NCBI GenBank assembly: GCA_016789145.1
Contig: JAEUQI010000003.1
Location: forward strand, 5,206 to 69,205
Direction of reading: 5' to 3'
DNA: 64,000 bases
Origin: Blastocatellia bacterium
Lineage (GTDB): Bacteria; Acidobacteriota; Blastocatellia; Pyrinomonadales; Pyrinomonadaceae
How positions within the stretch are numbered: position 1 is the stretch's first letter; each line of letters starts with the position of its first letter. Shown here one piece after another: positions 3-60,083 of the stretch. The notes beneath the pieces were generated by a model. The model was not told the DNA's origin, searched no databases, and saw only the letters and a list, made by a program, of their open reading frames with translations. The position numbers were made by a program, and so were the translations under genes.

Positions 3-1094
3 AATGTCGACAACGGCCGCATTGCTCAGATACTCTACAACACCTGCGACGGGCCTGCCGCCGCGGTAGCTGACGTTACGGCAAAGCTCGACCCTGAGTC
101 GTTCCTCGCATCGGCGATCACTTGGCTTGAGGCTCTCTCGGCACGGAAAAAGGGTCCGATACTTTCCATCAATATCATTGCCGAAAAGCCTCGTGCTGCA
201 AATCTGCAAAAGCTTCACGCTTTGTTGAATGATAAATGGCGTTCGAAGATAAGCATCATTCGCATCGACCGGACCGGCGAATCACCACGGCTGCAGGTGC
301 TTTCGTCAAGGAAACTCAGCGAACTTTGGCGCGAAAAACCACGCAAACTCATACGGCCTGACAGTGAATTGCCCAGCAAATTAGCGCGGCAAATAATGTC
401 GCTTTCCTTTAACAATATCGATAGCGTTAACACCAGAAATGGCGAGACTCTTCGATTCAATGGCCTGCAATTCGCAAGAGTTCGCACGGTAATGAAAACT
501 GAGCGTGCATGGTTTGGCATGAATCGTGAGATGATCCCCTTGACAGAAGCCAGCCGTCCGAAACTGAGTGGCCTTGTGGGTGAACTTGCCAATTATCGCA
601 CGCCGGAATGCACGAATTTGCGTCATCGATATTACAAGGCTTCGCCCGAGGCTTGGCTCGAATCGATCTTGCGACGCGATGTAAATCAGCTCGATCCGAA
701 TCTGTTCGTATCGCCCGTCTATAATCAATTTCGCTCTGCAGGCGACAAAATAGATCTGTTGGCTCTACGCAATGATGGTCGTTTAGTGCTGGTCGAGATC
801 AAGACTTCGCCTGATAGGACGATGCCCTTTCAGGCGGCAGGCTATTGGCGGCGGATCGAGTTGCAGCGGCGCCGCGGCATTCTGGCTGAGGCCGATCTGT
901 TCGAAGGCCGCGAGATCGCAGATGTTCCGACGCTAGTTTATTTGGTCGCCCCGGCGTGGAGCTATCATGCCGATCACGAACGATTTGCGGCAATGGTCTC
1001 GAGAGAGATCGAGATGTGGCGTTTTGAGCTGCACGAAGACTGGCGTCGCGAGATACGCGTGGTCGGACGTTCGAGTGCCCATCACGGCGTTTGA
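3..1094 (+). CDS. Hypothetical protein, 5'-truncated by the window edge, with a C-terminal PD-(D/E)xK (NucS/DUF91-like) nuclease-fold domain
   Basis: The frame of the listed 222..1094 ORF stays open back to base 3 (NVDNGRIAQILYN...), so the true start lies upstream of the window. The C-terminal 'GDKIDLLALRNDGRLVLVEIK' fits the D...E-x-K restriction-endonuclease-fold signature. I recognise no motif in the rest. Confidence 0.55.
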   Translation, partial: NVDNGRIAQILYNTCDGPAAAVADVTAKLDPESFLASAITWLEALSARKKGPILSINIIAEKPRAANLQKLHALLNDKWRSKISIIRIDRTGESPRLQVLSSRKLSELWREKPRKLIRPDSELPSKLARQIMSLSFNNIDSVNTRNGETLRFNGLQFARVRTVMKTERAWFGMNREMIPLTEASRPKLSGLVGELANYRTPECTNLRHRYYKASPEAWLESILRRDVNQLDPNLFVSPVYNQFRSAGDKIDLLALRNDGRLVLVEIKTSPDRTMPFQAAGYWRRIELQRRRGILAEADLFEGREIADVPTLVYLVAPAWSYHADHERFAAMVSREIEMWRFELHEDWRREIRVVGRSSAHHGV

Positions 1095-25629: not shown

Positions 25630-26783
25630 TGTTGATACACCTTAGCTGTCCAAAATGTGCCGCGAATCTCGACGTCAATGACGGCGACCGCTTGGTGAAG
25701 TGTAAGTTCTGCGGTGCGGTCTCTGCACTTAAGTTGGACGAGCGGAAAGAGCCAACGTTGTCGCTAACGGGAGGCAAACAATTTGTGCCGTCCGCAGACG
25801 CTTTGATCACGCTCGACGATCTGAGAGTCCATTACCGCAGCGGCGGCGGGCTTTTGAGTGCGTTCAAGACCGTCAAAGCTGTCGATGGCGTGTCGCTCGA
25901 TATCAAGAAAGGCGAGACGCTTGGCCTCGTCGGCGAATCAGGTTGCGGTAAATCTACGCTTGGAAAAGCGATCCTTAGACTTACAAATCCGACAGGCGGA
26001 AAGGTAATTTACAACGGCAAAGACCTCGCTCATCTGCCAAATTCGGCGATGCGTGACCAGCGAAAGCATCTGCAGATGATCTTTCAAGACCCTTACGCGA
26101 GCCTCAATCCGCGAATGACCGTCGGGCAGATCATCGGTGAACCGTTGAACACGTTCGGACTCAAAGGCAGCGTGAGCGTTGAGCAGTTGATGGAGACAGT
26201 AGGCCTGTCGCGTCGTTTTATAAAACGCTATCCACACGAGTTTTCCGGCGGCCAGCGTCAGCGAATCGGAATTGCCCGAGCACTTGCTGTAGATCCGGAA
26301 TTCATTGTCGCCGATGAACCGATCTCCGCTCTTGATGTCTCAATTCAGGCTCAGATAATGAACCTAATGGAGCGTTTGCAGGCTGAAAAGCAATTGACGT
26401 ATCTGTTCATTTCACACGATTTACGGGCTGTCAGGCATCTATCAGATCGAGTCGCAGTGATGTACCTCGGCCGTATCGTCGAGCTAGCTGACGCAAAAGA
26501 TATCTACAAAGAACCGTTAATGCCATACACGCAGGCATTGATCTCAGCCGTACCAGTTCCCGACCCTGAGGTCGAAGCGAAACGTGAGCGAATCATTTTG
26601 AAAGGCGACGTTCCTTCGCCGATAAACCCGCCGACCGGCTGCCATTTTCACACGCGTTGCCAATACGCTGTCCCCGAATGTAAGACGACGACACCGCAGC
26701 TCGTCGAGATCAAGCCGCGACATTACGCCGCGTGCATTCGCATCTCGCCCGAGCGGCCCCACATATCCGAGAACACGAATTAG
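25629..26783 (+). CDS. Oligopeptide ABC transporter ATPase (OppF-like) with a possible N-terminal zinc-ribbon extension
   Basis: It has Walker A 'GESGCGKS', 'FSGGQRQR', 'FIVADEP' and 'CHFHTRC'. The first 52 codons encode 'CPKC...x14...CKFC'. An alternative in-frame GTG at 25785 is preceded by GGGAGG. Confidence 0.85.
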
Positions 26784-26941
26784 ATCGTTGCCTTCATTCC
26801 GTAAAACCCAAAGGTGGCTAGCTTTATTTGCGGCCTCTCTTTTTTGCTCGCCATCCGGCCTAAAGCGGCGAGCACGCCGAGCACTACGAGCGCGATGATC
26901 GCAATGAGCGTAACAATCTTTGCGACGGTTCTTTCGATCAA
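26780..26941 (-). CDS. Possible small single-pass membrane protein (53 aa, TTG start)
   Basis: This is the C-terminal part of the listed 26780..27175 ORF, 'IERTVAKIVTLIAIIALVVLGVLAALGRMASKKERPQ...', and it contains a clean 20-residue hydrophobic helix. It has no convincing SD. The upstream part of the ORF runs through repeat DNA and is probably not coding. Confidence 0.25.
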   Translation of the reverse strand: MIERTVAKIVTLIAIIALVVLGVLAALGRMASKKERPQIKLATFGFYGMKATI

Positions 26942-26944
26942 AAT

Positions 26945-26978
26945 GGTAGAGGTCTCTTTTTTAAAAAACACCTCTACC
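26945..26978. promoter_or_regulatory. Near-perfect palindrome around an A/T core
   Basis: GGTAGAGGT (26945..26953) pairs with ACCTCTACC (26970..26978), flanking CTCTTTTTTAAAAAAC. The right arm is also the start of the first 22-bp repeat unit. Confidence 0.6.
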
Positions 26979-27059
26979 ACTTGGGCACTTCTCCGGTACC
27001 ACTTTAGGCAAAGTACTCTACCACTTTCCGGAAAGTACTCTACCACTTGGGGTCTAGCT
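26972..27059. repeat. Four tandem 22-bp direct repeats with a conserved CTCTACCACTT core
   Basis: The core TACCACTT starts at 26975, 26997, 27019 and 27041, an exact 22-bp phasing. Units 2 and 3 also contain the internal palindromes ACTTT-N4-AAAGT (27001..27014 and 27023..27036). Confidence 0.85.
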
Positions 27060-27122
27060 GTTACAGATTTGCCTGTAAACACGGCATTCTGGGCATTCAT
27101 TGGCGTGGCACAGCGTTGCATA

Positions 27123-27191
27123 TGTGGTACGTACCACAATTTTGTGCGACAACTTGTAACGCGACTTTTGACCAAATTTGTCGCGCGACAA
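27123..27191. promoter_or_regulatory. Operator-like palindrome cluster upstream of the GGDEF operon
   Basis: There is a 16-bp perfect palindrome TGTGGTACGTACCACA (27123..27138), which reuses the GTACCAC core of the repeats. It is followed by three TTGT-N-GCGAC(AA) sites: TTGTGCGACAA (27142..27152), TTGTAACGCGAC (27154..27165) and the 14-bp perfect palindrome TTGTCGCGCGACAA (27178..27191). Confidence 0.6.
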
Positions 27192-27417
27192 TTCGTGTCA
27201 AAAACAATGAAATTGACCCACGAAAATTTACATTTATAGATCGAATCCTTGTTCCCGCCTTCTCGCCATTGTGCGATCGGAGGCGAGCTGTCTCACGACT
27301 GCGTCTTTTTTATTGAAATCTCATTGCTATTGGGCGTTTTAGCCCGATACAGGAAATTAGCATTTACGAATTCGCGGCGTTATCAACCGTTAGTTCGCGG
27401 GCTATTATTTGACGAAT

Positions 27418-29469
27418 ATGGCACGACTAAAAGAAGTTCCACCGCAAAGAGAATTGAGCGATCTGGCAGACAGTTCCGGCTTGGCGATCTCGGTCATCGA
27501 CCGCAGCGGCGTTGAGACGACGGCGCTCAATAACAATTCGATCTGCCGCAGCCTTAATCCCGACGGCGAGTTTGTCGGCAAGTGCAACGCATTCTGCGGC
27601 AAGGCTCTCGACAATGCTCTTAACGCGGGCCGCGAGATCGGCTTCACGTGTCACGCCGGCCTCGATTGCCGAGCGCTTGCGATGTCAGATAACGGCAAAC
27701 CTGTGGCAGTTGTCGTTGGCCGTACATTTACGAGATCGGAGAACTATCGCAGAGCCGCCTCATTTGCAGCCACAGGCGAATGGAGCTCAATGCCCGTCTC
27801 GGCCATGTTTGGCAACGTACTGCTTACGGGCTCTTCCGTCGCTCTTGAAAAGACGGTCGAAAAGCTCGAACGCCTCGGCCGAGAGATCGAGGTGGAAGTT
27901 CAACCGGCGATGACCGAGACCATCGAGATCGAGCGTTTTGAGCCCGAGATCGTTGATTTCGCCGAGGTCATCGAAGAAGACCTCGAACCGGTCCGAGCAT
28001 TACCAAAAGATGAAACATCCGATTGGCGTTCGCTCTATTCGACGATCTTGAGCCAAGACTATCGCACCGCATGCGAGATGCTGCTCGACTTTGCAGCTGA
28101 TCACTACGGCCTCGGATCGGCGGCTATTCTCGCTGTAAGAAAAGAGAAATTCGTTAACGTCACTGCACGCGGACAAATGGCGATATCAGGAATTCGAATC
28201 GGCATCTCGCCGACTGACGAACGTATCGCAACCGCTATATCCGACGGCGATGCTCTTGTTCTCAGCGAACGCCGCTCAAAAAATGGCGAAGGTCGAACGC
28301 TGACGATCCTGCCCGTCGCCGTCGCAACCGATGCGACCGCGGCGATCGCAACCCTAGACCAGTTCGAAAGTGATGACAGACGGCGCCAGCTATTGCGGCT
28401 CGTGAATACAGTAGCCGGACGGCTCGAGATCTTGCGATTACGCGCCGAGCTCGACGGACGTGAGTCTATCGAACGTTCGGTCAAGAAATTTGACAGCGAA
28501 CTGCGGAATGCCGAGGGCGACGATCTGTGGCAGCAGCTTGCCGCAAATTCTGCTCAACTATTGCAAGCCGAGCGTGCTTCGTTGCTTCTGATTGACGAAT
28601 TGTCCGGTAAATTCCGAGTTGCCGCCTCGGTAGGCATGACCGCCGAAGGCACGGCCGAACAAGATCCCGGACGCCGCGTCGCTCATGCGATATTTGAACG
28701 AGGTAAGACAGCCTTGGTTCCTGACGCCCTCAAGGCCGGACTGCAAGACAATGTCGAGGAACGCGGATATCGCACTCGGTCATTCATCAGCAGCCCTATC
28801 GTGCTTGGCGAAAAAAAGATCGGCGTGCTGAGTTTCACGGACAAAGCAACGTCAACTGCATTTAATGCCAAGGACCTCGAAATGGTAGAGGCCATCGCTC
28901 CGCAGATCGCCGTTGCAATTGACCGAGAAGCCCTCAGGGCAAAGGCCGGTGAGTTCGAACAGCTCTCGGTAACCGACGCTCTGACCGGTTTGCTCAATCG
29001 CCGCTACATAGAGCAGCGTCTGGATGAAGAAGTTAAACGTTCGAATCGTCATGGTTATCCGATGAGTTTTCTCCTGCTCGATGTCGATCATTTCAAATCG
29101 TACAATGACACCTACGGCCATCCGGCGGGCGACGTTGCTCTTAAAATGGTCGCCGACGTGATCAAAGATACGCTGCGTGGAGCTGACGTAGCAGCAAGAT
29201 TTGGCGGTGAAGAATTTGCGATCCTGCTGCCGCAAACGGTTGACGAAGAAGCCGCCGCGATCGCCGAACGTGTCCGCCGCAATATCGAGGCGACCGAGTT
29301 TCCTCATCGCGAGGTGACGGTGAGCATCGGCATTGCCAGCTGTTCGAGTGAACTTTGTTCGACGACAGGCTTGGTAGATGCGGCAGACAAGGCGTTGTAC
29401 GACGCCAAACGATTGGGACGAAACGGCGTCCGAATGTTTGCCCAAATGGAGATAGAGCGTTTTGAATGA
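27418..29469 (+). CDS. Diguanylate cyclase with PocR-like sensor, GAF domain(s) and GGDEF domain
   Basis: The N-terminal Cys/His pattern 'CRSLNPDGEFVGKCNAFCGKA...FTCHAGLDCRALAM' is PocR-like. A GAF-like region follows ('AERASLLLIDE...IGVLSF'). The GGDEF domain has 'LLLDVDHFKSYNDTYGHPAGD', the active site 'GGEEF' (29203..29217) and the I-site 'RGAD' (29176..29187). Confidence 0.88.
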   Translation: MARLKEVPPQRELSDLADSSGLAISVIDRSGVETTALNNNSICRSLNPDGEFVGKCNAFCGKALDNALNAGREIGFTCHAGLDCRALAMSDNGKPVAVVVGRTFTRSENYRRAASFAATGEWSSMPVSAMFGNVLLTGSSVALEKTVEKLERLGREIEVEVQPAMTETIEIERFEPEIVDFAEVIEEDLEPVRALPKDETSDWRSLYSTILSQDYRTACEMLLDFAADHYGLGSAAILAVRKEKFVNVTARGQMAISGIRIGISPTDERIATAISDGDALVLSERRSKNGEGRTLTILPVAVATDATAAIATLDQFESDDRRRQLLRLVNTVAGRLEILRLRAELDGRESIERSVKKFDSELRNAEGDDLWQQLAANSAQLLQAERASLLLIDELSGKFRVAASVGMTAEGTAEQDPGRRVAHAIFERGKTALVPDALKAGLQDNVEERGYRTRSFISSPIVLGEKKIGVLSFTDKATSTAFNAKDLEMVEAIAPQIAVAIDREALRAKAGEFEQLSVTDALTGLLNRRYIEQRLDEEVKRSNRHGYPMSFLLLDVDHFKSYNDTYGHPAGDVALKMVADVIKDTLRGADVAARFGGEEFAILLPQTVDEEAAAIAERVRRNIEATEFPHREVTVSIGIASCSSELCSTTGLVDAADKALYDAKRLGRNGVRMFAQMEIERFE

Positions 29470-31661
29470 GCGACACTAGCTCGCAAAAACTGATTTCAAG
29501 CGTCCCGCTGACCGACCTGATCGGACGGCTGGACGAGATCGCGCGCCTCGAATCACACGCGGCCGGACATTCTGCGGACAATTTGCTGGTCGTCTCGGGT
29601 GCTCCGCGAGTGGGCGTTTCGGAGATCCTTCGTCAGACGTATGATCGCGTTTTTCTAGCCAATGCCGACATATTACCGATCTATTTCTCGGTCTCAGCCA
29701 ATGACCGTGACGCGATCAGCTCGGCACGAAGATTCGCATATGAGTTCCTGTTGCAATTTCTTGCGTTCAAGCGAAACGACGCTTCGTTGCTGGAACTTCG
29801 ACCGAGTCTCGACGAGATAACACGCCTCGCCGGCTTATCAGATGCTGTATTTGTCGATCAGGTCGTCGAACTATTAACGTCAAACGCTGAGAATCCTTGG
29901 GTCGATCTATATCGGACGTTATTCGCATTGCCTTCGCGGCTGAGTGCGGCCGGCACGCGGTGCTTTGTCATATTCGACAATGTTCATCGAGCGTTGAGTT
30001 TCGCTGACAGCGAAGTTGCGATGAATGCGATTAGCGAAGTTTGCATTGAAGCCGGTTTTCCTTGCGTAGTCGGCGGACGTCGGCGTGCAGTTTACGGCAA
30101 GTTCACCGACAAAGTGTTGGCCGTGGAGCGGCTAGGTTTCGAAGACGCAGGCCTACTTATTGAATCGCTCGCTCGAAAGAACAACGTTACGATCAACGAT
30201 CAAACTCGCGACCTCATTGCGGTCCAACTCGACCGAGATCCGCAGTTTATCGGCGACATCATTCGCCGCGCGGCGGTTACAAATACATCGCTAGATAGTT
30301 TTCAAGCGTTCGAATCGGTCTATGCCGACGAGATGAGCGGCGGCATGATCTCGCGGCGATTGGATTCTGAGTTTTCCATCGCGGGTGGCGATCGTGAGCT
30401 TGGTCATGCTCTCTCGTTGCTTACGGCAAAGGTCTCTTCGTCGCCGCAACAGTCTGCCTCGGCAAAGAAGGTCGGCGAGCGTTTGGGAATTGGCTCGATA
30501 GACCTGCAAAGGTCAATGGCATGTTTGTATTCGGCGGAGATCGCGTCGATCAACGGCGATCGATTTATGGTCGAGACCGAATGCAGAGCATTGGACGACT
30601 ATCTCGAACTGCATCGAACAGTGGAAACTCCGGGCATATCGCGTGCACAAGCAATTGGCGAACGAGCCGCTCATTACGTCAAGCGTGCTCCGCATTTGAT
30701 GGCAAGGCATTATCGTCGCCTATCGGCCCTCGGCATTGCGGACTTACTTCGTACGTTCGATGGCCGAGAAGTTCCGCTGGCGATGCTCGATTATGGCAAG
30801 TTTCGCGACGACTTAAAGGGTCGCGATGCGTCTGAGATCGCCGATCGCCTGGCGACTGACACCGACATAATTACATTGCCAAAGATCGTCTACACGGCTC
30901 ATAGCTCTGCATACTATCGCCCGATCGGTGAGTTTGTAGATACAGAACGCTCTGCCGTTGCTCTCGGTTTTGAACAGAATGATGGGAGCGACATCGCGTG
31001 GCTTGCGACCGAGCTTGATTCGAAACTTGAAGCTTCGGCGAGCCTGACCGAGTTTTGGTGCGATCGTCTCGAGATGCTCGCCGCCCATTGCGATCTGCCG
31101 GCATTCAAGATCTGGCTTATCGCTCCCGAAGGCTTTTCGCCGGAGGCTTTGGCAGTTTTAGCAGAGAGAAATGCCATTGGGTCAAGTCGGGCTCAGGTTG
31201 CATTACTACGTTCACATGTTGGCATCGAGAACGTCTCCGCCGTCGATGACAGCGAAGAATTTCGTATGACTATCCCGATGGGGGACGACACCGAAATGCT
31301 CGCAGTTCATATGATCGAAGAGATCGCGAGACGAAACGAGTATCCTAGTTCGGCTATAAACCAGATCAAGACCGCCGTTGTCGAAGCCTGCATCAACGCC
31401 GCAGAACACAGCCTAAGCCCCGATCGCAAGATCTACATCGGCGTTACGGCAAAGAGAGACAACATTCAAATTTCGATCGAAAATCGTGGCGTTAGTGTCG
31501 CGATAAAACAGGCCGCTTCGACCGAGGAGGCGACCGGACGCCGAGGTTGGGGATTGAAGCTTATCAAGAATCTCATGGACGAGCTTGTTTTCCAGCAGTC
31601 GGATGATGGCACGAGGCTCGTGATGTCGAAAACTGTCGAGCGGAAAGCCGCTGCTGCGTAG
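29466..31661 (+). CDS. Large fusion protein: N-terminal AAA_16/STAND-like domain with degenerate Walker A, uncharacterised middle, C-terminal RsbW/SpoIIAB-type serine kinase (HATPase_c_2)
   Basis: The N-terminal 'LIGRLDEIARLESH...LLVVSGAPRVGVSEIL' and 'CFVIFDNVH' resemble a P-loop NTPase, but the Walker A Lys is replaced by Val. The C-terminal 'IKTAVVEACINAAEHS' (N-box) and 'GWGLKLIKNLMDEL' (G-box) match anti-sigma kinase domains. It overlaps the cyclase gene by ATGA. Confidence 0.75.
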   Translation: MSDTSSQKLISSVPLTDLIGRLDEIARLESHAAGHSADNLLVVSGAPRVGVSEILRQTYDRVFLANADILPIYFSVSANDRDAISSARRFAYEFLLQFLAFKRNDASLLELRPSLDEITRLAGLSDAVFVDQVVELLTSNAENPWVDLYRTLFALPSRLSAAGTRCFVIFDNVHRALSFADSEVAMNAISEVCIEAGFPCVVGGRRRAVYGKFTDKVLAVERLGFEDAGLLIESLARKNNVTINDQTRDLIAVQLDRDPQFIGDIIRRAAVTNTSLDSFQAFESVYADEMSGGMISRRLDSEFSIAGGDRELGHALSLLTAKVSSSPQQSASAKKVGERLGIGSIDLQRSMACLYSAEIASINGDRFMVETECRALDDYLELHRTVETPGISRAQAIGERAAHYVKRAPHLMARHYRRLSALGIADLLRTFDGREVPLAMLDYGKFRDDLKGRDASEIADRLATDTDIITLPKIVYTAHSSAYYRPIGEFVDTERSAVALGFEQNDGSDIAWLATELDSKLEASASLTEFWCDRLEMLAAHCDLPAFKIWLIAPEGFSPEALAVLAERNAIGSSRAQVALLRSHVGIENVSAVDDSEEFRMTIPMGDDTEMLAVHMIEEIARRNEYPSSAINQIKTAVVEACINAAEHSLSPDRKIYIGVTAKRDNIQISIENRGVSVAIKQAASTEEATGRRGWGLKLIKNLMDELVFQQSDDGTRLVMSKTVERKAAAA

Positions 31662-31761
31662 GCAATTTGCGAGTTGTAATGGCTTTCGTTCTGTGTTAAA
31701 CATATCACTCAAGTACTATCTCAGTGCGCGCATCGTAAACAAACGTAAGGAATATATTTAA

Positions 31762-32082
31762 GTGATCGCAGAAAACCACTACGAGCCTGCGGCGCCTGCC
31801 GCCGAAAACATCGCGGTCGTGACGGCCGGAGACTATTTGAACAAGCTAACCGGCGAACGCATCGAACGCGAATGCAAGGATCGCCTCGAACAAGGCTGCC
31901 GCGAACTCGTCGTCGATTTTTCGCAGACCGAGGTCATCAACAGCATCGGCATCTCGATCCTGCTCGGCGTTATCGATTCCGCAAAGAACTCGGGCGCAAA
32001 GGTCGTTTTCTCGGAACTCAACGATGACTCCGCACAACTTTTTGAATCGCTCGGCCTAACCAATCATGTGACCATAGCTTAG
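31762..32082 (+). CDS. STAS-domain anti-sigma-factor antagonist (RsbV/SpoIIAA-like)
   Basis: It is 106 aa with a GTG start 8 nt after AAGGAA. 'LVVDFSQTEVINSIGISILLGVI' has a conserved phosphorylatable-Ser position (S61, 31942..31944). Confidence 0.85.
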   Translation: MIAENHYEPAAPAAENIAVVTAGDYLNKLTGERIERECKDRLEQGCRELVVDFSQTEVINSIGISILLGVIDSAKNSGAKVVFSELNDDSAQLFESLGLTNHVTIA

Positions 32083-32092
32083 GAGTTTCGCC

Positions 32093-33382
32093 ATGATCGA
32101 AGATCGTACCAAACTGATCCACGCCTTTGGCGCACTCGCCGAACTCGGCAGCGAAGTCGCCAACAAGAATAGCTTTCAGGAGACCATTCGCACATCGCTG
32201 CATTTGATCTCAGGAGCACTGGCGATCATGCGTGGCGGTGTTGCTCGTTATTCGCGATATGGGCATGAACTGAATATGCTTGCGGTTCGTGGTCTCGGCG
32301 ACGATTTTCCGTTGAGCTTGTCGCTGTGTTTAGAGGACGAAAGACAGTTCATCGCCAACGGCCTGAACGCGATCGAAACGTCACAAGCAAAGGTTTTACC
32401 GTTCTTTCAAGTCTATGATCGCAGCCTCGAATCTCGAAAGATCGAACTGTTTGTGCCGCTCGTTGTTCGTGATGAGATCGTCGGTGCGTTGTTCCTTGGC
32501 GAAAAGGCAACTTCGCTTCCATACACGACCTACGAAAAGGAGATAATCTGCGCGATGGGCCGCCACATTGGCGTCGCTATTGCTCAGCGAAATCTGATGG
32601 CCGAGATCGAACGACACGCAGAAGAGAATCGAAAGTTAGTCGACGATATGCGAACGACCTACAACGATACTGTTAAAGCGTTTGCGACCGCGATCGACTG
32701 CAAAGATAAATATACAGAAGGCCACTCGGTTCGAGTCGGCAAATACAGCGAGATCATCGCAACCGAGCTTGAATGGGGCCCGCAAGAAGTCGAGGGAGCA
32801 GCCGTTGCCGGGTATTTGCACGATGTCGGCAAGCTGACAGTCGAACGAAAGATAATCAATGCCCCGTATCGCATTAACGCAAAAGAATCTGCCGAGCTGA
32901 ACAAGCATCCGGGTGTCGGCTACGAGATCTTGCTGCCGATACACCATCCGTACACCAACGTACCGCTTGCCGCGAAATATCACCACGAACGCCTCGACGG
33001 CCGTGGCTATCCCGACGGATTGTATGATCGCGAAATTCCGTACATAGCAAAGCTCGTCAATCTCGCCGATTCGTTCGATGCGATGACCACCGACCGACCG
33101 TACAAGGCTCGACGCCCGGCGGCGGACGTCGTTGACGATCTCCGACGAAACGCGGGCAAACAGTTCGCACCGGAACTTGTGACGGCATTCCTACGCGGAA
33201 TGTTGAAAGAATTGACCGGCGATAATAAGGAAAAGCGTTTCCGCAAGCTTCTCGGCCGCGAATATATGGAAGCCGAAGGAATTGTCCCGATCCTGCGAAC
33301 GGCATTAAACGAAATGACGCCTACGTCGCCCCTGACCTACATCAATTCAGAGCCACAGGCCGAAGGACCTACTATTTTATAG
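32093..33382 (+). CDS. GAF-domain HD-GYP phosphodiesterase
   Basis: It has an N-terminal GAF-like domain. The HD-GYP motifs are 'EGHSVRVGKY', 'GYLHDVGKL' and 'HHERLDGRGYPDGL'. AGGAG lies 7 nt upstream of the ATG. Confidence 0.88.
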   Translation: MIEDRTKLIHAFGALAELGSEVANKNSFQETIRTSLHLISGALAIMRGGVARYSRYGHELNMLAVRGLGDDFPLSLSLCLEDERQFIANGLNAIETSQAKVLPFFQVYDRSLESRKIELFVPLVVRDEIVGALFLGEKATSLPYTTYEKEIICAMGRHIGVAIAQRNLMAEIERHAEENRKLVDDMRTTYNDTVKAFATAIDCKDKYTEGHSVRVGKYSEIIATELEWGPQEVEGAAVAGYLHDVGKLTVERKIINAPYRINAKESAELNKHPGVGYEILLPIHHPYTNVPLAAKYHHERLDGRGYPDGLYDREIPYIAKLVNLADSFDAMTTDRPYKARRPAADVVDDLRRNAGKQFAPELVTAFLRGMLKELTGDNKEKRFRKLLGREYMEAEGIVPILRTALNEMTPTSPLTYINSEPQAEGPTIL

Positions 33383-33406
33383 AGAAAACTTCTACTAGTA
33401 TCTAAC

Positions 33407-33447
33407 GGGAACAGCGGGTCTATATTCGCTGTTCCTCTTCTTTGTTT
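33407..33447 (+). terminator. Rho-independent terminator closing the GGDEF/HD-GYP operon
   Basis: A 9-bp perfect stem pairs GGAACAGCG (33408..33416) with CGCTGTTCC (33427..33435). It is followed by TCTTCTTTGTTT. Confidence 0.75.
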
Positions 33448-33520
33448 GGCTAGCTTAGTCGAGAAAACCCTTGTGACCTCGTGCAATACGGTTACGGAAA
33501 GCGATAAACTCTAACTTTCC

Positions 33521-35374
33521 ATGTCAGACGCCGTAGCCAAATATCACGAGGAAGACGCGATCGGAAAGACGTATGATCTTAGGATCGCACGACGTTTGCT
33601 GCGGTATCTGCGACCGTACTGGAAGACGGCCGCGGCGGCTCTGTTTCTCACATTTATCACGAACATTCTGATCTCAACCCAGCCATATTTTACAAAGATG
33701 GCGGTCGATGATTTCATCACGCCAAAGAAGACAGACGGTCTGTGGGTATTCGCCGTCGCGTTTTTTGGTGTGTTCTTGTTCAGGTTCTTGTTCTCATATG
33801 TACAGGAAATTTTGCTCAACACGGTCGGCCAGCGCGTAATGTTCGACATAAGGACCGAGTTGTTTACCAAGCTGCAGAAACAAGAGATAGCGTATTTTGA
33901 CAATTATCCAGTTGGGCGGACGATGACGCGGCTGACCGGCGACGTCGATGCTTTAAATGAATTGTTCACCTCAGGCGTGATCGACGTGCTGGGCGATCTT
34001 GTCATCATCTTTGCGATCCTCGGAATAATGTTCTTCCTTGATTGGAAACTGGCTTTGGTTTCGCTTATTACCGTTCCGTTACTATTCACGGCGACGAATT
34101 GGTTTCGTAAACATGCGAGGACAGGTTTCGACAGAGTCAGAACTCGGAATGCGCGGCTGAATGCGTTTCTACAAGAGTACATTTCGGGTGCTCAAACGGT
34201 TCAGCTTTTCAACGCCGAGGGCAAGGCTAAGTCGCGTTTTCGCAAGATCAACAACGACTATCGCGAAGCAAATATTGAGACGATCTATTACTACTCGATC
34301 TTTTATCCGATGGTGGATCTGATCGGTGCTGTCGGTATTGCCGCAGTGATCTTTTTCTTCGGATTTGAGTATCTAGCCGGATTTTCGACTGCGGGCCAGG
34401 CCGTGACAATCGGTATTCTTGCGTCTTTCATTCAGTATTCGCTTCAATTATTTCAGCCGATCCGCGATCTGTCGGACAAATTCAATGTGCTGCAGGCGGC
34501 GATCGTTGCGTCGCATCGGATATTTATTCTGTTGGATAGAGATATCGAGGTAACTTCGCCGGCGGAGCCGAAACACGAGGGCAAGGTCGTCGGTAGGATC
34601 GAGTTTGAGAATGTTTGGTTCGCTTATAAAGAGGAAGATTGGGTTTTGAAAGATGTTTCGTTCACGGTCGAACCTGGCGAAAGCATCGCGCTTGTTGGGC
34701 ATACCGGCTCGGGCAAAACGACGATCACGAATTTGATAATGCGGTTCTACGATGTTCAGAGAGGCCGTATACTGCTCGACGGAACCGATATTCGCGAATG
34801 GAACCTACATGATCTGAGATCGAATTTTGCTGTCGTCTTGCAAGACGTTTTCCTATTTCGCGGTACTGTCGCCGAGAACATCAGGCTTGGAAATTCGAAG
34901 ATCGACGATGACGCGATAATGTGGGCGGCAAAAGAAGTTCGGGCAGATGAATTTATCGCGAAACTCGACGACGGCTATTCGTCTGAGGTGCAGGAACGTG
35001 GTGCGGGGCTTTCTGTCGGGCAAAAACAACTGATATCATTTGCGAGAGCATTGTCTTTCGATCCGTCGATTCTGATCCTGGATGAGGCGACTAGCTCGAT
35101 AGACACCGAGACGGAACAGTTGATACAACAGGCCGTTACGCGCGTGATGACTGGCCGTACATCGCTGGTAGTCGCGCATCGCCTGTCGACGATTCAGGAC
35201 TGTGACCGTATAATTGTGATGCATCATGGCGAGTTGCGCGAGATCGGAACACACGCCGAATTATTGGCAAATCGTGGGCTGTATTGGCGTCTATATCGTT
35301 TGCAGTATTCCGACGAAAAGCTGCATATTTCAGAGCCCGGAATCACGACAGAGGGCTACGTTTCGCCGGCTTAG
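33521..35374 (+). CDS. ABC exporter, fused permease-ATPase (MsbA/multidrug type)
   Basis: It has an N-terminal six-helix TMD, Walker A 'GHTGSGKTT', the signature 'LSVGQKQ' and Walker B 'ILILDEATS'. Confidence 0.88.
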
Positions 35375-35379
35375 AACTG

Positions 35380-36366
35380 ATGAATTCAGACACCTCACAA
35401 TACCTAACTGACGAAATTGCTCGCATTTACGAGCAGTGTGAGGCTGAGGCTCCAAATCTCGGCGTTACGCTCCTGCAATTCTCATCGTCGATCGAACGCA
35501 CCGTTGCCAAATATCTCGAACCAGCTTCAGATACACCCATAACTACCGAAGAAATTCGTGAGTTTTTCGACAATCTTCAGGCAAATGATCTGTTCCTAGC
35601 TCTCGCGTGTTCGGTCGGAAACGAACGGGCTTGGTGGGAATTTGACCAGCAGCATCGCTCGTATATGGAACGGGTCGCACGTCATTTGGCAAAAACCGAG
35701 ATCGACGCGACCGAGGTCGTCGATGCGGTTTACGTCGAGCTTTACGGCACGAGGGTAGTCGATGGCGAGCGAGTTTCTAAGTTCGCACTATACAGCGGAC
35801 GCGGTTCGCTGCGAGGATGGCTGCGTACTGTGATCTGGCATTCGGTGGTCGATCTACATCGCGCAGGCCATGGCGAAGTTTCGCTCGACGAGATGACCGA
35901 AAACATCGGTGAAGGAGCAGCCCACGCAAACTTTGCCCTAGAGAATCCGACCGGCGAAGACGCTGCTGAGAGAGAACTTATACGCAGCCGGTATCGTGCC
36001 GCAACGGTCGCTTCGCTCGCTGAGGCAATGTCCTCACTCGACGCCCACGAACGCCTCTTACTCAAGTATTATCACGTAGATGGATTAAAGCTAAGAGAGA
36101 TCTCTCGGCTGGCTGAGAACGAGAGTTCGCCTCTAAGAGACTGGTTTCAACGGCGTTCGCAAACGCGTGAAGCAAAGCCCGATGCCAAGGTTTACGAATC
36201 GACCGTAATGCGTTGGCTGGAGAAGAGTTACGCTATTATTCAGCAACGATTTCGGGACGAATTGGCATCGAAGCACGGGCTTTCGCCAAAGGACATCGAT
36301 CTGTGTTTGGAGCTTGCATCCGAAGACGTGCACTCAGGCGGTTTGTTTGGAAATTTAGGAAGTTAA
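35380..36366 (+). CDS. Atypical long ECF-like sigma-70 family factor
   Basis: 'DLFLALACSVGNERAWWEFDQQH' and 'SLRGWLRTVIWHSVVDLHR' look like region 2. 'ERLLLKYYHVDGLKLREISRLA...YESTVMRWLEKS' looks like region 4. It is 328 aa against about 190 for a typical ECF. The ATG lies 5 nt after the ABC exporter stop. Confidence 0.7.
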   Translation: MNSDTSQYLTDEIARIYEQCEAEAPNLGVTLLQFSSSIERTVAKYLEPASDTPITTEEIREFFDNLQANDLFLALACSVGNERAWWEFDQQHRSYMERVARHLAKTEIDATEVVDAVYVELYGTRVVDGERVSKFALYSGRGSLRGWLRTVIWHSVVDLHRAGHGEVSLDEMTENIGEGAAHANFALENPTGEDAAERELIRSRYRAATVASLAEAMSSLDAHERLLLKYYHVDGLKLREISRLAENESSPLRDWFQRRSQTREAKPDAKVYESTVMRWLEKSYAIIQQRFRDELASKHGLSPKDIDLCLELASEDVHSGGLFGNLGS

Positions 36367-36426: not shown

Positions 36427-36855
36427 ATGTCAGTGATGAAAGAGTTCGAAAAGATCGCAAAAGTAAACGACAGATTTCAAGCAATCGTGGCTGAATTTCT
36501 GATCGCGGACGATTCGGACATCTCCGGCAGCCTCCATCATCTTGATAACGATACGCTGGCGGCGTTTACCGAAGGTTCAATGTCCCAACGTGAGGCTCGC
36601 CCTGTTGTCGCCCACCTCGCCGCATGCGGTCATTGCCGCAATATTACGGTCGAGTTGGTTCGAACCGAAATGGCTATGGCAGGCGAAGACCGTAATGAAC
36701 CGGTGACGGAATCAACCCCGGCGACGATCTCGTCGGTGCTGAGTGGAATAGTCTCTCGCCTCTTCGAACGGAGTGACGCGGCAGTTTTTGCCCACGGCGA
36801 GAAAGAAGAAGAAGCCGACGAAGACAAGACAAAAGAGAGCGACAAGGAAGACTAA
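36427..36855 (+). CDS. Putative zinc-binding (ZAS, HxxxCxxC) anti-sigma factor, soluble, with an acidic tail
   Basis: It has 'VAHLAACGHCRN', no TM helix, and the C-terminus 'EKEEEADEDKTKESDKED'. GGAGGT lies just upstream. Confidence 0.65.
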   Translation: MSVMKEFEKIAKVNDRFQAIVAEFLIADDSDISGSLHHLDNDTLAAFTEGSMSQREARPVVAHLAACGHCRNITVELVRTEMAMAGEDRNEPVTESTPATISSVLSGIVSRLFERSDAAVFAHGEKEEEADEDKTKESDKED

Positions 36856-56190: not shown

Positions 56191-56556
56191 ATTAAAACCA
56201 ATTGCGCCTCACGCGCTTTAGGGGTAAAAAACCTGTTGACGTATCGCGCTCGACTTGTTACGATGCTCGTAATCCAAGTTTTACGGCTACGTTTGCCATA
56301 GAAAGACGGCAAATGCGGTCTTGGGTAAAGTTTTCCCAGACCGCTTGATAAGCAGTAGATGCCTTAACTAATTTTTCCGAGCGTGTCGGTGTAAGACACT
56401 CACTCCCCATTTGTGCGGCCTAAATACCGCTGAAAAAACCACGATAGTGCGGCATAAATGCCCCAAGATCGTATTGCTGAACATCGCAGATCGGGAAAAA
56501 CCGTCCAAACCTCGCGAAACTATCAGCTTAACAGCACTTTTTTCAATAAGCAAGCA

Positions 56557-56587
56557 ATGGAGAGCCAACATCAAGCCGGCTCTCCAT
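56557..56587 (-). terminator. Hairpin (attenuator/partial terminator candidate) just after rplL
   Basis: A 10-bp perfect stem pairs ATGGAGAGCC (56557..56566) with GGCTCTCCAT (56578..56587), 17 nt downstream of the rplL stop. The downstream tract on the minus strand is only moderately T-rich (TGCTTGCTTATTG). Confidence 0.45.
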
Positions 56588-56603
56588 CGTTATTGCTGAT
56601 CTA

Positions 56604-56996
56604 CTATTTGAGCTCGATCGTAGCGCCGGCTTCAGTAAGCTTAGCTTTGATCTCTTCAGCTTCGGCCTTCGATGCGCCTTCTTTAATCGCTTTCGGTGCG
56701 CTGTCAACGAGATCCTTAGCTTCCTTGAGGCCGAGACCTGCAACGACTTCGCGAACAACCTTAATGACCGCGATCTTGTTGCCACCGGCTGATTCGAGGA
56801 TAACGTCGAACGAATCCTTCTCTTCTGCCGCGGCACCGCCGCCATCACCGCCTGCCGGAGCTGCCATCATCATCGGTGCTGCCGCTGCCGCAGCCGAAAC
56901 TCCGAATACTTCTTCGAGTTCCTTGACCAATTCCGACGCTTCGAGAAGCGACATACCTTTCAAAAATTCAACAACATCAGCTTTTGTAACTGCCAT
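56604..56996 (-). CDS. rplL: 50S ribosomal protein L7/L12
   Basis: It has '[29 protein letters not shown]', an Ala/Gly hinge and the C-terminal 'LKEAKDLVD...EAGATIELK'. Confidence 0.97.
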
Positions 56997-57233
56997 GATT
57001 TTTATCTATCTCCTATTTAGGGTTCTTTTATTTCAATTAAATTGCCGCTAGAACCCAGGGACACACAATGAATGGGTTGCATCACCTTTCATTTAGTATC
57101 CGAAGCCAATGTGCCTGACAACACGTCGGCTCGTTTTACCTTGAGCACGGCTTTCACGAACCGTTTAAGGCTCGTGATCTCAAATCTGAGATCTAAGACC
57201 TCAAATTCTATCGAGATCGATCGATCTCAAAAC

Positions 57234-59199: not shown

Positions 59200-59253
59200 C
59201 TTCTTTTTCGATTAACGATGCCGGTGTTTTTGTCGGCAATGTCCTCTTCTAAT

Positions 59254-59814
59254 TTATTCATCCTCGGCGAAGGTAACTTTCTCCACCTCGAGGAATGTCA
59301 ACTCGTACGGAGTCGAGCGTCCAAAAATCGTGATCGAAACCTTAAGTGTCGATTTGTCTTCATTGACCTCTTCAACCTTGCCCGTGAAGCTCGCGAACGG
59401 TCCCGATTTGATACGAACGACCTCGCCAACTTCGTATGTGAACTTCGGTTTCGGCTTTTCGGTCGTGACCTCGATATTGTGATCGATCTGGTCGACCTCA
59501 GCTTGCGAAAGCGGCGTTGGCTGCTTTCCGCCGAGAAATCCTGTCACTTTCGGCGTCGATTTGATCGCGTGAAACACGTTGTCAGGGATCTTGCCCTTTT
59601 CGTCACATTCAATCTCAACGAGCACGTAGCCCGGATAGAACATTCGCTCCGAGACGTACTCTTTGTTGCCACGCATCTCGACGACTTTTTCTTTCGGAAG
59701 CTTTACCTCGGTGATCTGCTCGCCGAGCTCCATGTCGCGAATCCTCGCAGCAAGGCTCTCAACGACCTTGTTCTCGTGTCCCGAATATGTGTGGATGAAA
59801 TACCACTGCTTCAT
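59254..59814 (-). CDS. nusG: Transcription termination/antitermination factor NusG
   Basis: It has '[14 protein letters not shown]', and a KOW region '[21 protein letters not shown]'. Confidence 0.95.
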
Positions 59815-59828
59815 TTCAAATATCCTTG

Positions 59829-60083
59829 TTAGATGCCTGCGATCTTGTTAACAACCCACGTCAAACCTTCGAGAATATACGTCCACGCATGATCTACGAG
59901 AAACAGATAAGCTGCAAAAAAGATGACGTTCAAAATAACAATGATCGTCGTGCCGCGCACATCACTCGATGATGGGAACGTCGTCTTGTCCAATTCAGCG
60001 CGAGTCTTCGTAATGAAATCGCCGATGCCTTGCTTTCCGCTATTTTCTGTCGTTGCTGCTGCGTCTGACACTGTTTTCTCCAT
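59829..60083 (-). CDS. secE: Preprotein translocase subunit SecE
   Basis: It has the conserved position between tRNA-Trp and nusG, '[16 protein letters not shown]' and a single C-terminal TM helix. Confidence 0.85.

What the first reader, a model, noticed from the sequence alone, without database searches (positions are those of the whole stretch)
27418..33382. Four-gene operon placing a partner-switching pair (RsbW-type kinase plus STAS) between a c-di-GMP synthase and an HD-GYP phosphodiesterase
Seen in sequence:
- Four co-directional, tightly packed genes. Genes 1 and 2 overlap by ATGA, there is a 100-nt gap before the STAS gene, and a 10-nt gap before the last gene.
- They are bounded upstream by a 634-bp regulatory region and downstream by a clean terminator (33408..33447).
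- The products are PocR-GAF-GGDEF with intact GGEEF and an RxxD I-site, a 731-aa protein ending in an RsbW/SpoIIAB-type kinase domain, a 106-aa STAS protein with the conserved Ser, and a GAF-HD-GYP protein with intact HD and HHExxDGxGYP motifs.

Established knowledge:
- RsbW/SpoIIAB kinases phosphorylate STAS antagonists and normally sequester a sigma factor.
- GGDEF domains make c-di-GMP and HD-GYP domains degrade it.
- There is a precedent for a STAS protein talking to a cyclase in the P. aeruginosa HptB-HsbR-HsbA pathway, where HsbA is reported to interact with the cyclase HsbD.

Inference:
- No sigma factor is encoded in the operon.
- The partner-switch output is therefore likely one or both c-di-GMP enzymes.
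- This would be a self-contained make/break second-messenger switch gated by phosphorylation.
- I do not recognise this four-gene arrangement as a described system.
Basis: partly seen in the sequence, partly recalled or inferred. Interest (0 to 1): 0.8.

Follow-up and report, generated by a model that had tools for sequence, protein, structure and literature searches.

The report
Split partner-switch locus for c-di-GMP turnover
The four genes are real, but they form two separate conserved pairs (c-di-GMP synthase with an unusual RsbW-type kinase, and a STAS protein with an HD-GYP c-di-GMP hydrolase), which probably make a new version of the known phosphorylation switches that control this bacterial second messenger.

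Summary
Observation confirmed.

The locus is not one tight four-gene operon. It is two modules.
- Module 1 is the PocR-like/GAF/GGDEF cyclase plus a 731-aa kinase. They are adjacent in 74 of 79 related loci.
- Module 2 is the STAS protein plus the HD-GYP enzyme. They are adjacent in 63 of 63 loci and have their own conserved promoter-like motif.
- The two modules are adjacent in only about 39% of relatives. That is less often than the presumably unrelated Opp-to-cyclase junction (76%). The case for cross-talk therefore rests on domain logic, not on synteny.

The kinase is unusual.
- Its N-terminus is an Orc1/Cdc6-like AAA+ domain that never has the Walker A lysine.
- Its C-terminus is an RsbW/SpoIIAB-fold domain with an invariant Asn where the G1-box Asp should be.

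No PP2C phosphatase and no conserved sigma factor lie nearby, so the locus is not self-contained.

Partner switches that control diguanylate cyclases are already known (HsbA-HsbD, BgrUWV-BgrR, SiaABCD, Moorella MtT-MtG). I found no described STAS/HD-GYP pairing.

Verdict: new variant of a known kind, interpretation partly supported, interest about 0.55.

The parts
26784..27417 (+). 634-nt region upstream of the cyclase. Only the last ~115 nt (27303-27417) are conserved in close relatives, and this stretch is the likely promoter/leader. The rest is variable and holds short repeats and a palindrome.
   Evidence: Sequence. Repeats. Alignment with L161 and L001. nhmmer finds the block only in those three loci.
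27418..29469 (+). Sensor diguanylate cyclase of 683 aa.
- PocR-like Cys/His-rich N-domain: residues 13-104.
- GAF: residues 368-501.
- GGDEF: residues 518-669.
- RxxD I-site: nt 29173-29184.
- GGEEF: nt 29203-29217.
   Evidence: Pfam and NCBIfam. The motifs are invariant in 64 orthologues.
29466..31661 (+). 731-aa kinase-like protein.
- Pseudo-AAA+ (Orc1/Cdc6/Arch_ATPase-like) domain with lid and winged helix: residues ~18-420. The Walker A-like GAPRVGVS lacks the Lys (nt 29598-29621).
- Unassigned alpha/beta domain: residues ~430-590.
- RsbW/SpoIIAB-type HATPase_c_2 domain: residues 613-722 (nt 31302-31631), with the G1-box Asn673 at nt 31482-31484.
   Evidence: Pfam. Family alignment A1. PDB alignments. 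AF2 model with pLDDT 85.3. Foldseek. Exhaustive search with the N-terminal 590 aa.
31662..31761 (+). Kinase-to-STAS spacer holding a conserved promoter-like element: TTGTAA (31674-31679), a 17-nt spacer that includes an extended -10 TG, then TAAACA (31697-31702). A conserved leader and an AAGGAA ribosome-binding site follow.
   Evidence: Sequence. Six-locus alignment. The motif is present in 94 of 96 STAS upstream regions against 5.5% of shuffles.
31762..32082 (+). Single-domain STAS protein of 106 aa, RsbV/SpoIIAA-like. The candidate phospho-site Ser61 is at nt 31942-31944.
   Evidence: Pfam and NCBIfam. Alignment to SpoIIAA. Ser61 never varies in 33 orthologues.
32093..33382 (+). HD-GYP c-di-GMP phosphodiesterase of 429 aa with an N-terminal GAF-like domain that is below Pfam's threshold.
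- HD: nt 32819-32824.
- HHERLDGRGYP: nt 32981-33013.
   Evidence: Pfam HD_5 99.9 bits. The motifs are conserved. Orthologues are 66-96% identical and more than 120 clusters are at least 82% identical.
33407..33446 (+). Intrinsic-terminator-like hairpin followed by a T-rich run, ending the STAS/HD-GYP unit.
   Evidence: Sequence. Terminator scan.

Best explanation
The locus is a conserved chromosomal c-di-GMP control locus of Blastocatellia/Pyrinomonadaceae (Acidobacteriota). It consists of two transcription units that each tie one half of a partner-switch to one c-di-GMP enzyme.

Unit 1 encodes a sensor cyclase (PocR-like, GAF and GGDEF domains, with an I-site) and a large RsbW-type Ser kinase. 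The kinase's N-terminus is a catalytically dead AAA+-like scaffold.

Unit 2 encodes an RsbV/SpoIIAA-like STAS protein and a very conserved HD-GYP phosphodiesterase.

Proposed mechanism (inferred, not shown):
- The kinase domain binds STAS and phosphorylates it on Ser61.
- The phosphorylation state of STAS decides whether it sits on the kinase or on its co-encoded HD-GYP enzyme, and so changes c-di-GMP hydrolysis.
- When the kinase is not occupied by STAS, it contacts its co-encoded cyclase, as the RsbT-like MtT does with the cyclase MtG in Moorella.
- Synthesis and breakdown would then be shifted in opposite directions.
- Dephosphorylation needs a phosphatase encoded elsewhere.

Shown here: gene structure, domains, intact catalytic motifs, the two conserved pairs, and the separate promoter-like motif.

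Inferred: every protein-protein contact, kinase activity, and the direction of regulation.
For: - The domains and motifs are intact and conserved.
- The kinase C-terminus has the RsbW fold (6m36_A, TM 0.92 normalised to the target, rmsd 2.0 A). Its N-box (E640, N644, E647, H648) and G2 box (RRGWGL) are invariant.
- STAS Ser61 aligns with the SpoIIAA phospho-serine and never varies.
- The cyclase lies directly upstream of the kinase in 74 of 79 informative loci.
- STAS lies upstream of HD-GYP in 63 of 63 loci.
- Cyclase, kinase, STAS and HD-GYP keep the same order and orientation in lineages where the kinase is only 35-46% identical. Inserts of 2.4-7 kb split the two pairs without reordering them.
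- No other STAS gene lies near the kinase in any locus.
- Published precedents exist for STAS or kinase contact with cyclases: HsbA-HsbD, SiaC-SiaD and BgrV-BgrR, and MtT-MtG.
- A G1-box Asn is compatible with kinase activity in VanS and ThkA, according to the VanS preprint.
Against: - The kinase-to-STAS junction is kept in only ~39% of loci. That is less than the unrelated OppF-to-cyclase junction (76%), and similar to or lower than the HD-GYP-to-LysR/Sdh junction (41-74%). Synteny therefore does not argue for cross-talk between the two pairs beyond shared ancestry.
- STAS/HD-GYP has its own promoter-like motif.
- No PP2C phosphatase is linked to the locus.
- The G1-box Asp is replaced by Asn throughout the family, which could weaken ATP binding.
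- The STAS protein scores about as well against the non-phosphorylated MlaB proteins as against SpoIIAA.
- I could not test whether genomes with unlinked pairs keep both pairs.
Confidence: 0.5

Rival explanations
1. The two modules are functionally independent and are adjacent only because the ancestral gene order was Opp - cyclase - kinase - STAS - HD-GYP - LysR - Sdh. STAS would be a constitutive or otherwise regulated subunit of HD-GYP, much as MlaB is for MlaF. The kinase would regulate only the cyclase, or an unlinked STAS or sigma partner.
For: - The junction between the pairs is broken in ~60% of relatives, more often than junctions to unrelated neighbours.
- STAS/HD-GYP has its own promoter-like motif regardless of the upstream gene.
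- HD-GYP (66-96% identity) and STAS evolve much more slowly than the kinase (~40%).
- MlaB-type STAS proteins are among the best PDB sequence matches.
Against: - It would be a coincidence for the two complementary halves of a partner-switch, each tied to an opposing c-di-GMP enzyme, to be ancestral neighbours in the same orientation.
- The phospho-site Ser never varies.
- No alternative STAS gene lies near the kinase.
Confidence: 0.27
2. The RsbW-like domain is a pseudokinase. It acts only by stoichiometric binding, in the manner of an anti-sigma factor, sequestering the cyclase or an unlinked sigma factor. STAS would relieve this without being phosphorylated, which would explain why no phosphatase is needed.
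For: - The G1-box Asp is Asn in all 35 aligned family members.
- The N-terminal AAA+ domain is also a pseudo-enzyme, with no Walker A Lys in any member.
- No PP2C gene lies in the window or the neighbourhood.
Against: - The Mg-binding N-box and the G2 box are invariant, which is unexpected for a dead site.
- The VanS preprint treats G1-Asn kinases as functional: VanS binds ATP, though weakly, and a ThkA structure shows an Asn-adenine hydrogen bond.
- That preprint also cites a GTP-dependent Bacillus anthracis histidine kinase with the same substitution.
Confidence: 0.13
3. It is a classical anti-sigma/anti-anti-sigma pair that controls a sigma factor, with the c-di-GMP enzymes as inputs or bystanders.
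For: - The kinase domain's best named matches are RsbW and SpoIIAB.
- An ECF-like sigma (35284-36366) and a zf-HC2 anti-sigma (36427-36855) lie 1.9 kb downstream.
Against: - The NCBIfam RsbW and SpoIIAB scores are far below the equivalog cut-offs (45 bits against 135-145).
- The nearby sigma has its own ZAS-type anti-sigma.
- That sigma is not a neighbour in any of the 80 related loci (no SIG hits) or in the 80%-identical relative.
- The kinase is a 731-aa multidomain protein, unlike the ~150-aa anti-sigma factors.
Confidence: 0.07

Closest known systems
SiaABCD of Pseudomonas aeruginosa (PMC8457831, PMC7647112)
   Same: A kinase sets the phosphorylation state of a small STAS-fold protein, and that protein then binds and activates a co-encoded diguanylate cyclase. 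The genes are clustered.
   Different: - SiaC is a DUF1987 protein, not a PF01740 STAS protein.
- The Sia operon includes the PP2C phosphatase SiaA, and there is none here.
- The Sia operon has no phosphodiesterase.
- The SiaD model scores 168.7 bits against a cut-off of 290, so the cyclase here is not a SiaD orthologue.
- The kinase here carries a 600-aa pseudo-AAA+ N-terminus.
HptB-HsbR-HsbA-HsbD of P. aeruginosa (PMC5085249)
   Same: A STAS anti-anti-sigma protein with a phosphorylatable Ser binds a GGDEF cyclase depending on its phosphorylation state.
   Different: - In HsbR the kinase and phosphatase are fused behind a receiver domain fed by a phosphorelay.
[quoted passage not shown]
- No HD-GYP enzyme is involved.
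BgrSTUWV-BgrR of Sinorhizobium meliloti (Baena et al. 2019, as cited in PMC7647112 and PMC8457831)
   Same: A kinase/phosphatase couple controls a STAS protein (BgrV), which controls the cyclase BgrR.
   Different: That system includes a phosphatase and additional stressosome-type genes, and it has no phosphodiesterase. I did not read the primary paper.
Moorella thermoacetica stressosome module MtR/MtS/MtT/MtX-MtG (as cited in PMC7647112)
   Same: An RsbT/RsbW-type HATPase_c_2 kinase binds a diguanylate cyclase directly and attenuates it. This is the best model for the cyclase-kinase pair here.
   Different: That system has RsbR/RsbS stressosome scaffold proteins and a phosphatase. Here there is a pseudo-AAA+ N-terminal domain instead, and a STAS protein that is paired with an HD-GYP enzyme.
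RsbW-RsbV and SpoIIAB-SpoIIAA of Bacillus (PDB 6m36, 1til, 1th8)
   Same: The kinase domain has the same fold (TM 0.92 to 6m36_A), and the STAS protein has the same fold and phospho-site.
   Different: - No sigma factor target and no PP2C phosphatase.
- The G1 box has Asn, not Asp.
- The kinase is 731 aa, not ~145 aa.

Membership tests
Partner-switching system (RsbW/RsbV type) | HATPase_c_2 (RsbW/SpoIIAB-fold) Ser kinase/anti-sigma domain | tested here: met
   PF13581 67.1 bits against a cut-off of 27.4. Foldseek to RsbW 6m36_A gives TM 0.92 normalised to the target and rmsd 2.0 A.
Partner-switching system (RsbW/RsbV type) | Canonical ATP-binding boxes: N-box Asn, G1 DxGxG, G2 | tested here: inconclusive
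   The N-box and G2 box are invariant. The G1 Asp is replaced by an invariant Asn673. The VanS preprint describes the same substitution in the kinases VanS and ThkA and cites a GTP-dependent kinase that has it.
Partner-switching system (RsbW/RsbV type) | Single-domain STAS antagonist with a phosphorylatable Ser/Thr at the start of helix 2 | tested here: met
   PF01740 43.6 bits. Ser61 aligns with SpoIIAA Ser58 and never varies in 33 orthologues. Phosphorylation itself cannot be tested here.
Partner-switching system (RsbW/RsbV type) | Cognate PP2C (SpoIIE/RsbU-type) phosphatase | tested here: not met
   No PP2C/SpoIIE hit in any ORF scanned in the 64-kb window or among the recurrent neighbours in 160 related loci. 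One could be encoded elsewhere in the genome.
Partner-switching system (RsbW/RsbV type) | Sigma factor as the sequestered target | tested here: not met
   No sigma factor lies in the cluster. The ECF-like sigma 1.9 kb downstream has its own ZAS anti-sigma and is not syntenic in relatives.
SiaABCD | DUF1987 SiaC, PP2C SiaA, and a SiaD-equivalog cyclase | tested here: not met
   The small protein is PF01740 STAS, not DUF1987. No PP2C is present. NF038266 (SiaD) scores 168.7 bits against a cut-off of 290.
Active GGDEF diguanylate cyclase | GG(D/E)EF active site, plus the RxxD I-site five residues upstream | tested here: met
   GGEEF and RGAD are present and invariant in 64 orthologues. TIGR00254 scores 180 bits.
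HD-GYP c-di-GMP phosphodiesterase | HD metal-binding dyad and the HHExxDGxGYP signature | tested here: met
   H243-D244 and H297-HERLDGRGYP-307 are present and conserved. PF13487 scores 99.9 bits. Substrate specificity was not tested.
AAA+/STAND NTPase (Arch_ATPase, Orc1/Cdc6-like) | AAA+ fold with lid and winged helix | tested here: met
   Foldseek hits 2qen at E 1.1e-7, and 2qby_A and 2v1u_A at E ~1e-6. Some family members hit PF13191, PF01637 or PF24883.
AAA+/STAND NTPase (Arch_ATPase, Orc1/Cdc6-like) | Walker A GxxxxGK[ST] lysine | tested here: not met
   The motif reads G45-APRV-G50-V51-S52. The Lys position is V, S, A, T or L in all 35 aligned members. The domain is therefore a pseudo-NTPase.

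The most novel reading that the evidence does not exclude
This would be a bipartite push-pull partner switch.
- An RsbW-type kinase holds its co-encoded diguanylate cyclase, while the STAS protein gates its co-encoded HD-GYP enzyme. That would be the first partner-switch whose output is a c-di-GMP phosphodiesterase.
- The invariant G1-box Asn would make the kinase use GTP, which is the cyclase's own substrate, as reported for a Bacillus anthracis histidine kinase with the same substitution.
- STAS phosphorylation would then report the GTP pool.
- The pseudo-AAA+ domain and the possibly nuclease-fold domain would act as the sensor or scaffold.
Probability: 0.15. Interest if true: 0.8.

Novelty: new variant of a known kind. 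Interest (0 to 1): 0.55.

Why it matters
Partner-switching was long seen as a sigma-factor device. A handful of systems now show that it can drive diguanylate cyclases.

This locus would extend that idea in three ways:
- Control would reach the degradative side, through an HD-GYP enzyme bound to a dedicated STAS protein. The database search returned more than 1,200 related STAS clusters, and in the 63 loci examined STAS always sat next to HD-GYP.
- It would give a design in which the kinase and its substrate each carry one of the two opposing enzymes.
- It involves a previously undescribed kinase architecture, with a pseudo-AAA+ N-terminus and a G1-box Asn.

It also concerns Acidobacteriota, abundant soil bacteria whose signalling is almost unstudied. 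Clear in vitro tests are available.

Tried and rejected
1. Riboswitch or known RNA in the leaders. Rfam found nothing at E<=1 across 26500-33700.

2. Anti-phage defence system, suggested by the AAA+/nuclease-like/GHKL architecture. PADLOC gave no hits except generic HD similarity to Cas3. The locus sits at a fixed chromosomal place next to the opp genes.

3. PP2C phosphatase nearby. None was found.

4. The nearby ECF sigma as the target. It is not syntenic in relatives.

5. A second, divergent STAS gene near the kinase in loci that lack the pair. A family HMM search of six-frame ORFs of at least 60 aa found none.

6. Synteny as proof of coupling between the two pairs. The control junctions showed that it is not.

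7. Matching contig lengths between the kinase, STAS and HD-GYP hit lists, to test co-occurrence in genomes where the pairs are unlinked.

8. Identity of the kinase middle domain. There was no Pfam hit and no PDB sequence hit. Foldseek gave only weak matches to restriction-endonuclease-like folds (E 4e-3, TM ~0.35), which is inconclusive.

9. Conservation of the leader upstream of the cyclase beyond the three closest relatives. None was found.


Full report
**Observation**

The four co-directional ORFs exist exactly as described:
- a 683-aa protein at 27418-29469;
- a 731-aa protein at 29466-31661;
- a 106-aa protein at 31762-32082 (GTG start preceded by AAGGAA);
- a 429-aa protein at 32093-33382.

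The ORF coordinates and direct reading confirm the junctions: the ATGA overlap, the 100-nt and 10-nt gaps, and the 634-nt upstream spacer. The terminator scan finds a hairpin at 33407-33436 followed by a T-rich run.

Pfam and NCBIfam give the following:
- Cyclase: PocR (27.7 bits, a partial match), GAF and GGDEF.
- Kinase: a C-terminal HATPase_c_2 domain (67.1 bits) and nothing for its first 600 residues.
- STAS protein: STAS (43.6 bits).
- HD-GYP protein: HD_5 (99.9 bits), preceded by a GAF-like stretch below Pfam's threshold.

GGEEF and the RxxD I-site are invariant across orthologues, and HD and HHERLDGRGYP are invariant or nearly so. STAS Ser61 aligns with the phospho-serine of SpoIIAA and never varies in 33 orthologues. 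Proteins identical to the window's STAS and HD-GYP are named by NCBI as coming from a Blastocatellia MAG.

**The kinase is unusual**

An alignment of 35 family members and phmmer alignments to RsbW and SpoIIAB show three things:
- The N-box (E640, N644, E647, H648) is invariant.
- The G2 box (RRGWGL) is invariant.
- The G1-box Asp, which normally contacts the adenine, is an invariant Asn (N673).

A preprint on VanS reports the following:
- This substitution is rare but is found in VanS kinases, which bind ATP weakly.
- A ThkA structure shows an Asn-adenine hydrogen bond.
- It cites a B. anthracis histidine kinase with the same change as GTP-dependent.

The Asn therefore does not prove a dead kinase. 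It leaves nucleotide preference open.

The AF2 model has a mean pLDDT of 85.3. Foldseek gives these assignments:
- Residues ~1-400 are an AAA+ core with lid and winged helix. The closest matches are the Pyrococcus Walker-type ATPase 2qen and archaeal Orc1/Cdc6.
- Residues 597-723 have the RsbW fold (TM 0.92 normalised to the target).

The Walker A-like motif reads G45-APRV-G50-V51-S52 and never has the lysine in any family member. The AAA+ domain is therefore a pseudo-NTPase.

A middle domain (residues ~430-590) has invariant DSKLE, FWCDRLEM and APEGF blocks. Its only fold matches are weak ones to restriction-endonuclease-like folds, with no sequence match.

An exhaustive HMMER search with the first 590 residues found only 368 proteins among 1.84 billion cluster representatives. 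The full-length hits are about 700-780 aa long. This N-terminus is therefore private to this kinase family.

**Neighbourhood**

Scanning GTDB species genomes with the kinase gave 179 relatives. Of the 80 loci kept, nearly all are labelled Acidobacteriota (Pyrinomonadaceae, Blastocatellaceae or Chloracidobacterium-labelled MAGs); one MAG (L034) is labelled Actinomycetota.

From the kinase side:
- The cyclase lies directly upstream of the kinase in 74 of 79 informative loci.
- STAS/HD-GYP directly follows the kinase in 24 loci.
- It is displaced by inserts of 2.4-7.1 kb in 9 loci.
- It is absent from the 2-8 kb of available downstream sequence in 37 loci.
- Where it is absent, housekeeping genes follow instead. 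From their sequences these look like PBP4-, MurJ-, HisS- and Dxr-like proteins; I did not run a family search on them.

From the HD-GYP side, using a metagenome scan:
- STAS lies upstream of HD-GYP in 63 of 63 loci.
- The kinase is directly upstream of STAS in 21 loci, displaced in 2, and absent in 18 loci that have at least 2.8 kb upstream.
- Several of the absent cases share the HtrA-like and inositol-monophosphatase-family genes (c72, c73). In L047 and L056 these genes belong to the insert (c67-c73) that lies between the kinase and STAS.

In the loci examined, divergence is very uneven: HD-GYP is 66-96% identical, STAS 55-75% and the kinase about 40%.

**Two transcription units**

The kinase-to-STAS spacer holds a conserved promoter-like element. 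It takes one of two forms:
- TTGT-N11-20-TGnTAnA, as in the window (TTGTAA at 31674-31679, TAAACA at 31697-31702);
- TTGACA-N17-TACTTT.

One form or the other is present upstream of STAS in 94 of 96 loci. That includes all 48 loci where the kinase is not the upstream gene. Shuffled sequences match in 5.5% of trials. The scan found no terminator between the kinase and STAS genes, so read-through remains possible.

**Synteny control**

I measured how often each junction is kept within 3 kb:

| Junction | Kept |
|---|---|
| OppF to cyclase | 38 of 50 |
| Cyclase to kinase | 67 of 74 |
| Kinase to STAS/HD-GYP | 25 of 64 |
| HD-GYP to kinase, seen from the HD-GYP side | 9 of 24 |
| HD-GYP to LysR/Sdh | 7 of 17 and 20 of 27 |

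The link between the two pairs is therefore no better conserved than links to functionally unrelated neighbours. The ancestral order Opp - cyclase - kinase - STAS - HD-GYP - LysR - SdhCAB is seen intact in an 80%-identical relative. That shared ancestry is enough to explain the adjacency.

What synteny does support strongly is each pair taken separately.

**What is missing**

- No PP2C/SpoIIE phosphatase was found in any ORF scanned in the 64-kb window or among the recurrent neighbours.
- No second STAS gene lies near the kinase in any locus.
- The ECF-like sigma (35284-36366) and zf-HC2 anti-sigma (36427-36855) downstream are not conserved neighbours.
- Rfam found no known RNA element.
- PADLOC found no defence-system match.

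**Interpretation**

The best-supported reading is a partner-switch-type circuit for c-di-GMP that is split into two modules:
- the kinase is tied to the cyclase;
- the STAS protein is tied to the phosphodiesterase;
- kinase-STAS binding and Ser61 phosphorylation would link the two.

The argument for that link is domain logic:
- An RsbW-fold domain with invariant catalytic boxes needs a STAS partner.
- A STAS protein whose phospho-site Ser never varies needs a kinase.
- Each is the only such gene in the other's ancestral neighbourhood.

Published systems show STAS proteins binding cyclases:
- HsbA-HsbD;
- BgrV-BgrR;
- the STAS-like SiaC binding SiaD.

They also show an RsbT-like kinase binding a cyclase, MtT with MtG. 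None involves an HD-GYP enzyme. I found no paper that links STAS to HD-GYP.

The main rival is that the two modules work independently, with STAS acting as a dedicated subunit of HD-GYP. The synteny control keeps that rival credible.

**Verdict**

The locus is a new variant of a known kind, not a categorically new system. What is new is:
- the obligate STAS/HD-GYP pair;
- the kinase with a pseudo-AAA+ N-terminus and a G1-box Asn, paired with a cyclase;
- the apparent absence of a linked phosphatase.

Noticed in passing
window 26941-27051 and 27166-27203: The variable part of the 634-nt spacer holds three direct copies of CTCTACCACTT (two of them extended to GTACTCTACCACTT, 22 nt apart) and an inverted copy that forms a 20-nt hairpin. 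It also holds a 38-nt imperfect palindrome, TTTTGACCAAATTTGTCGCG/CGCGACAATTCGTGTCAAAA. Close relatives have only 154-440 nt here and lack these elements.
   Followed up: partly
L003-L080 and L103-L156, upstream of the cyclase gene: In most relatives, one or two divergently transcribed stress-type genes lie between the opp genes and the cyclase: DUF2383 (46 loci) and DJ-1/PfpI (23 loci). Both are missing from the window. The 131-aa minus-strand ORF at 26780-27175 has no Pfam hit and spans the repeats.
   Followed up: partly
window 31703-31761, and the equivalent STAS leaders in about 90 loci: Between the promoter-like motif and the ribosome-binding site, the STAS leader keeps two short conserved blocks: TCAAGT or TCGAGT, then CTAAAT. 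They occur in both promoter types. They could be an operator or an RNA element. Rfam has no match.
   Followed up: partly
window 35284-36366 and 36427-36855: An ECF-like sigma factor has an N-terminal extension of about 90 residues (TIGR03001, 103.7 bits, below the cut-off). Its listed TTG start overlaps the end of the preceding ABC exporter gene by 91 nt. A zf-HC2 anti-sigma factor follows. This block and the ABC exporter (33521-35374) replace the LysR-SdhCAB-BamA genes that follow HD-GYP in relatives, which marks a rearrangement breakpoint right after the terminator.
   Followed up: partly
window 27454-27729 (cyclase residues 13-104): The PocR-like N-domain keeps a conserved Cys/His pattern across 64 orthologues: C43, C56, C60, and C78-H79 within FTCHAG. 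This suggests a metal or redox sensor site.
   Followed up: no
L033, L050, L062, L067, L077: One sublineage has the kinase without the cyclase upstream. A methyltransferase-like gene and a 282-aa gene precede the kinase instead. In L033 and L050, STAS/HD-GYP still lies 2.6-5 kb downstream.
   Followed up: no
window 222-1094, 56458-57051, 59218-59832: Three ORFs of 197-290 aa have no Pfam match. The third overlaps a minus-strand ORF (59254-59814) in the ribosomal protein/EF-Tu region and may be spurious. The rest of the window is housekeeping, including rpoB/rpoC, a Clp ATPase, the opp operon, and a fabF-like gene.
   Followed up: no
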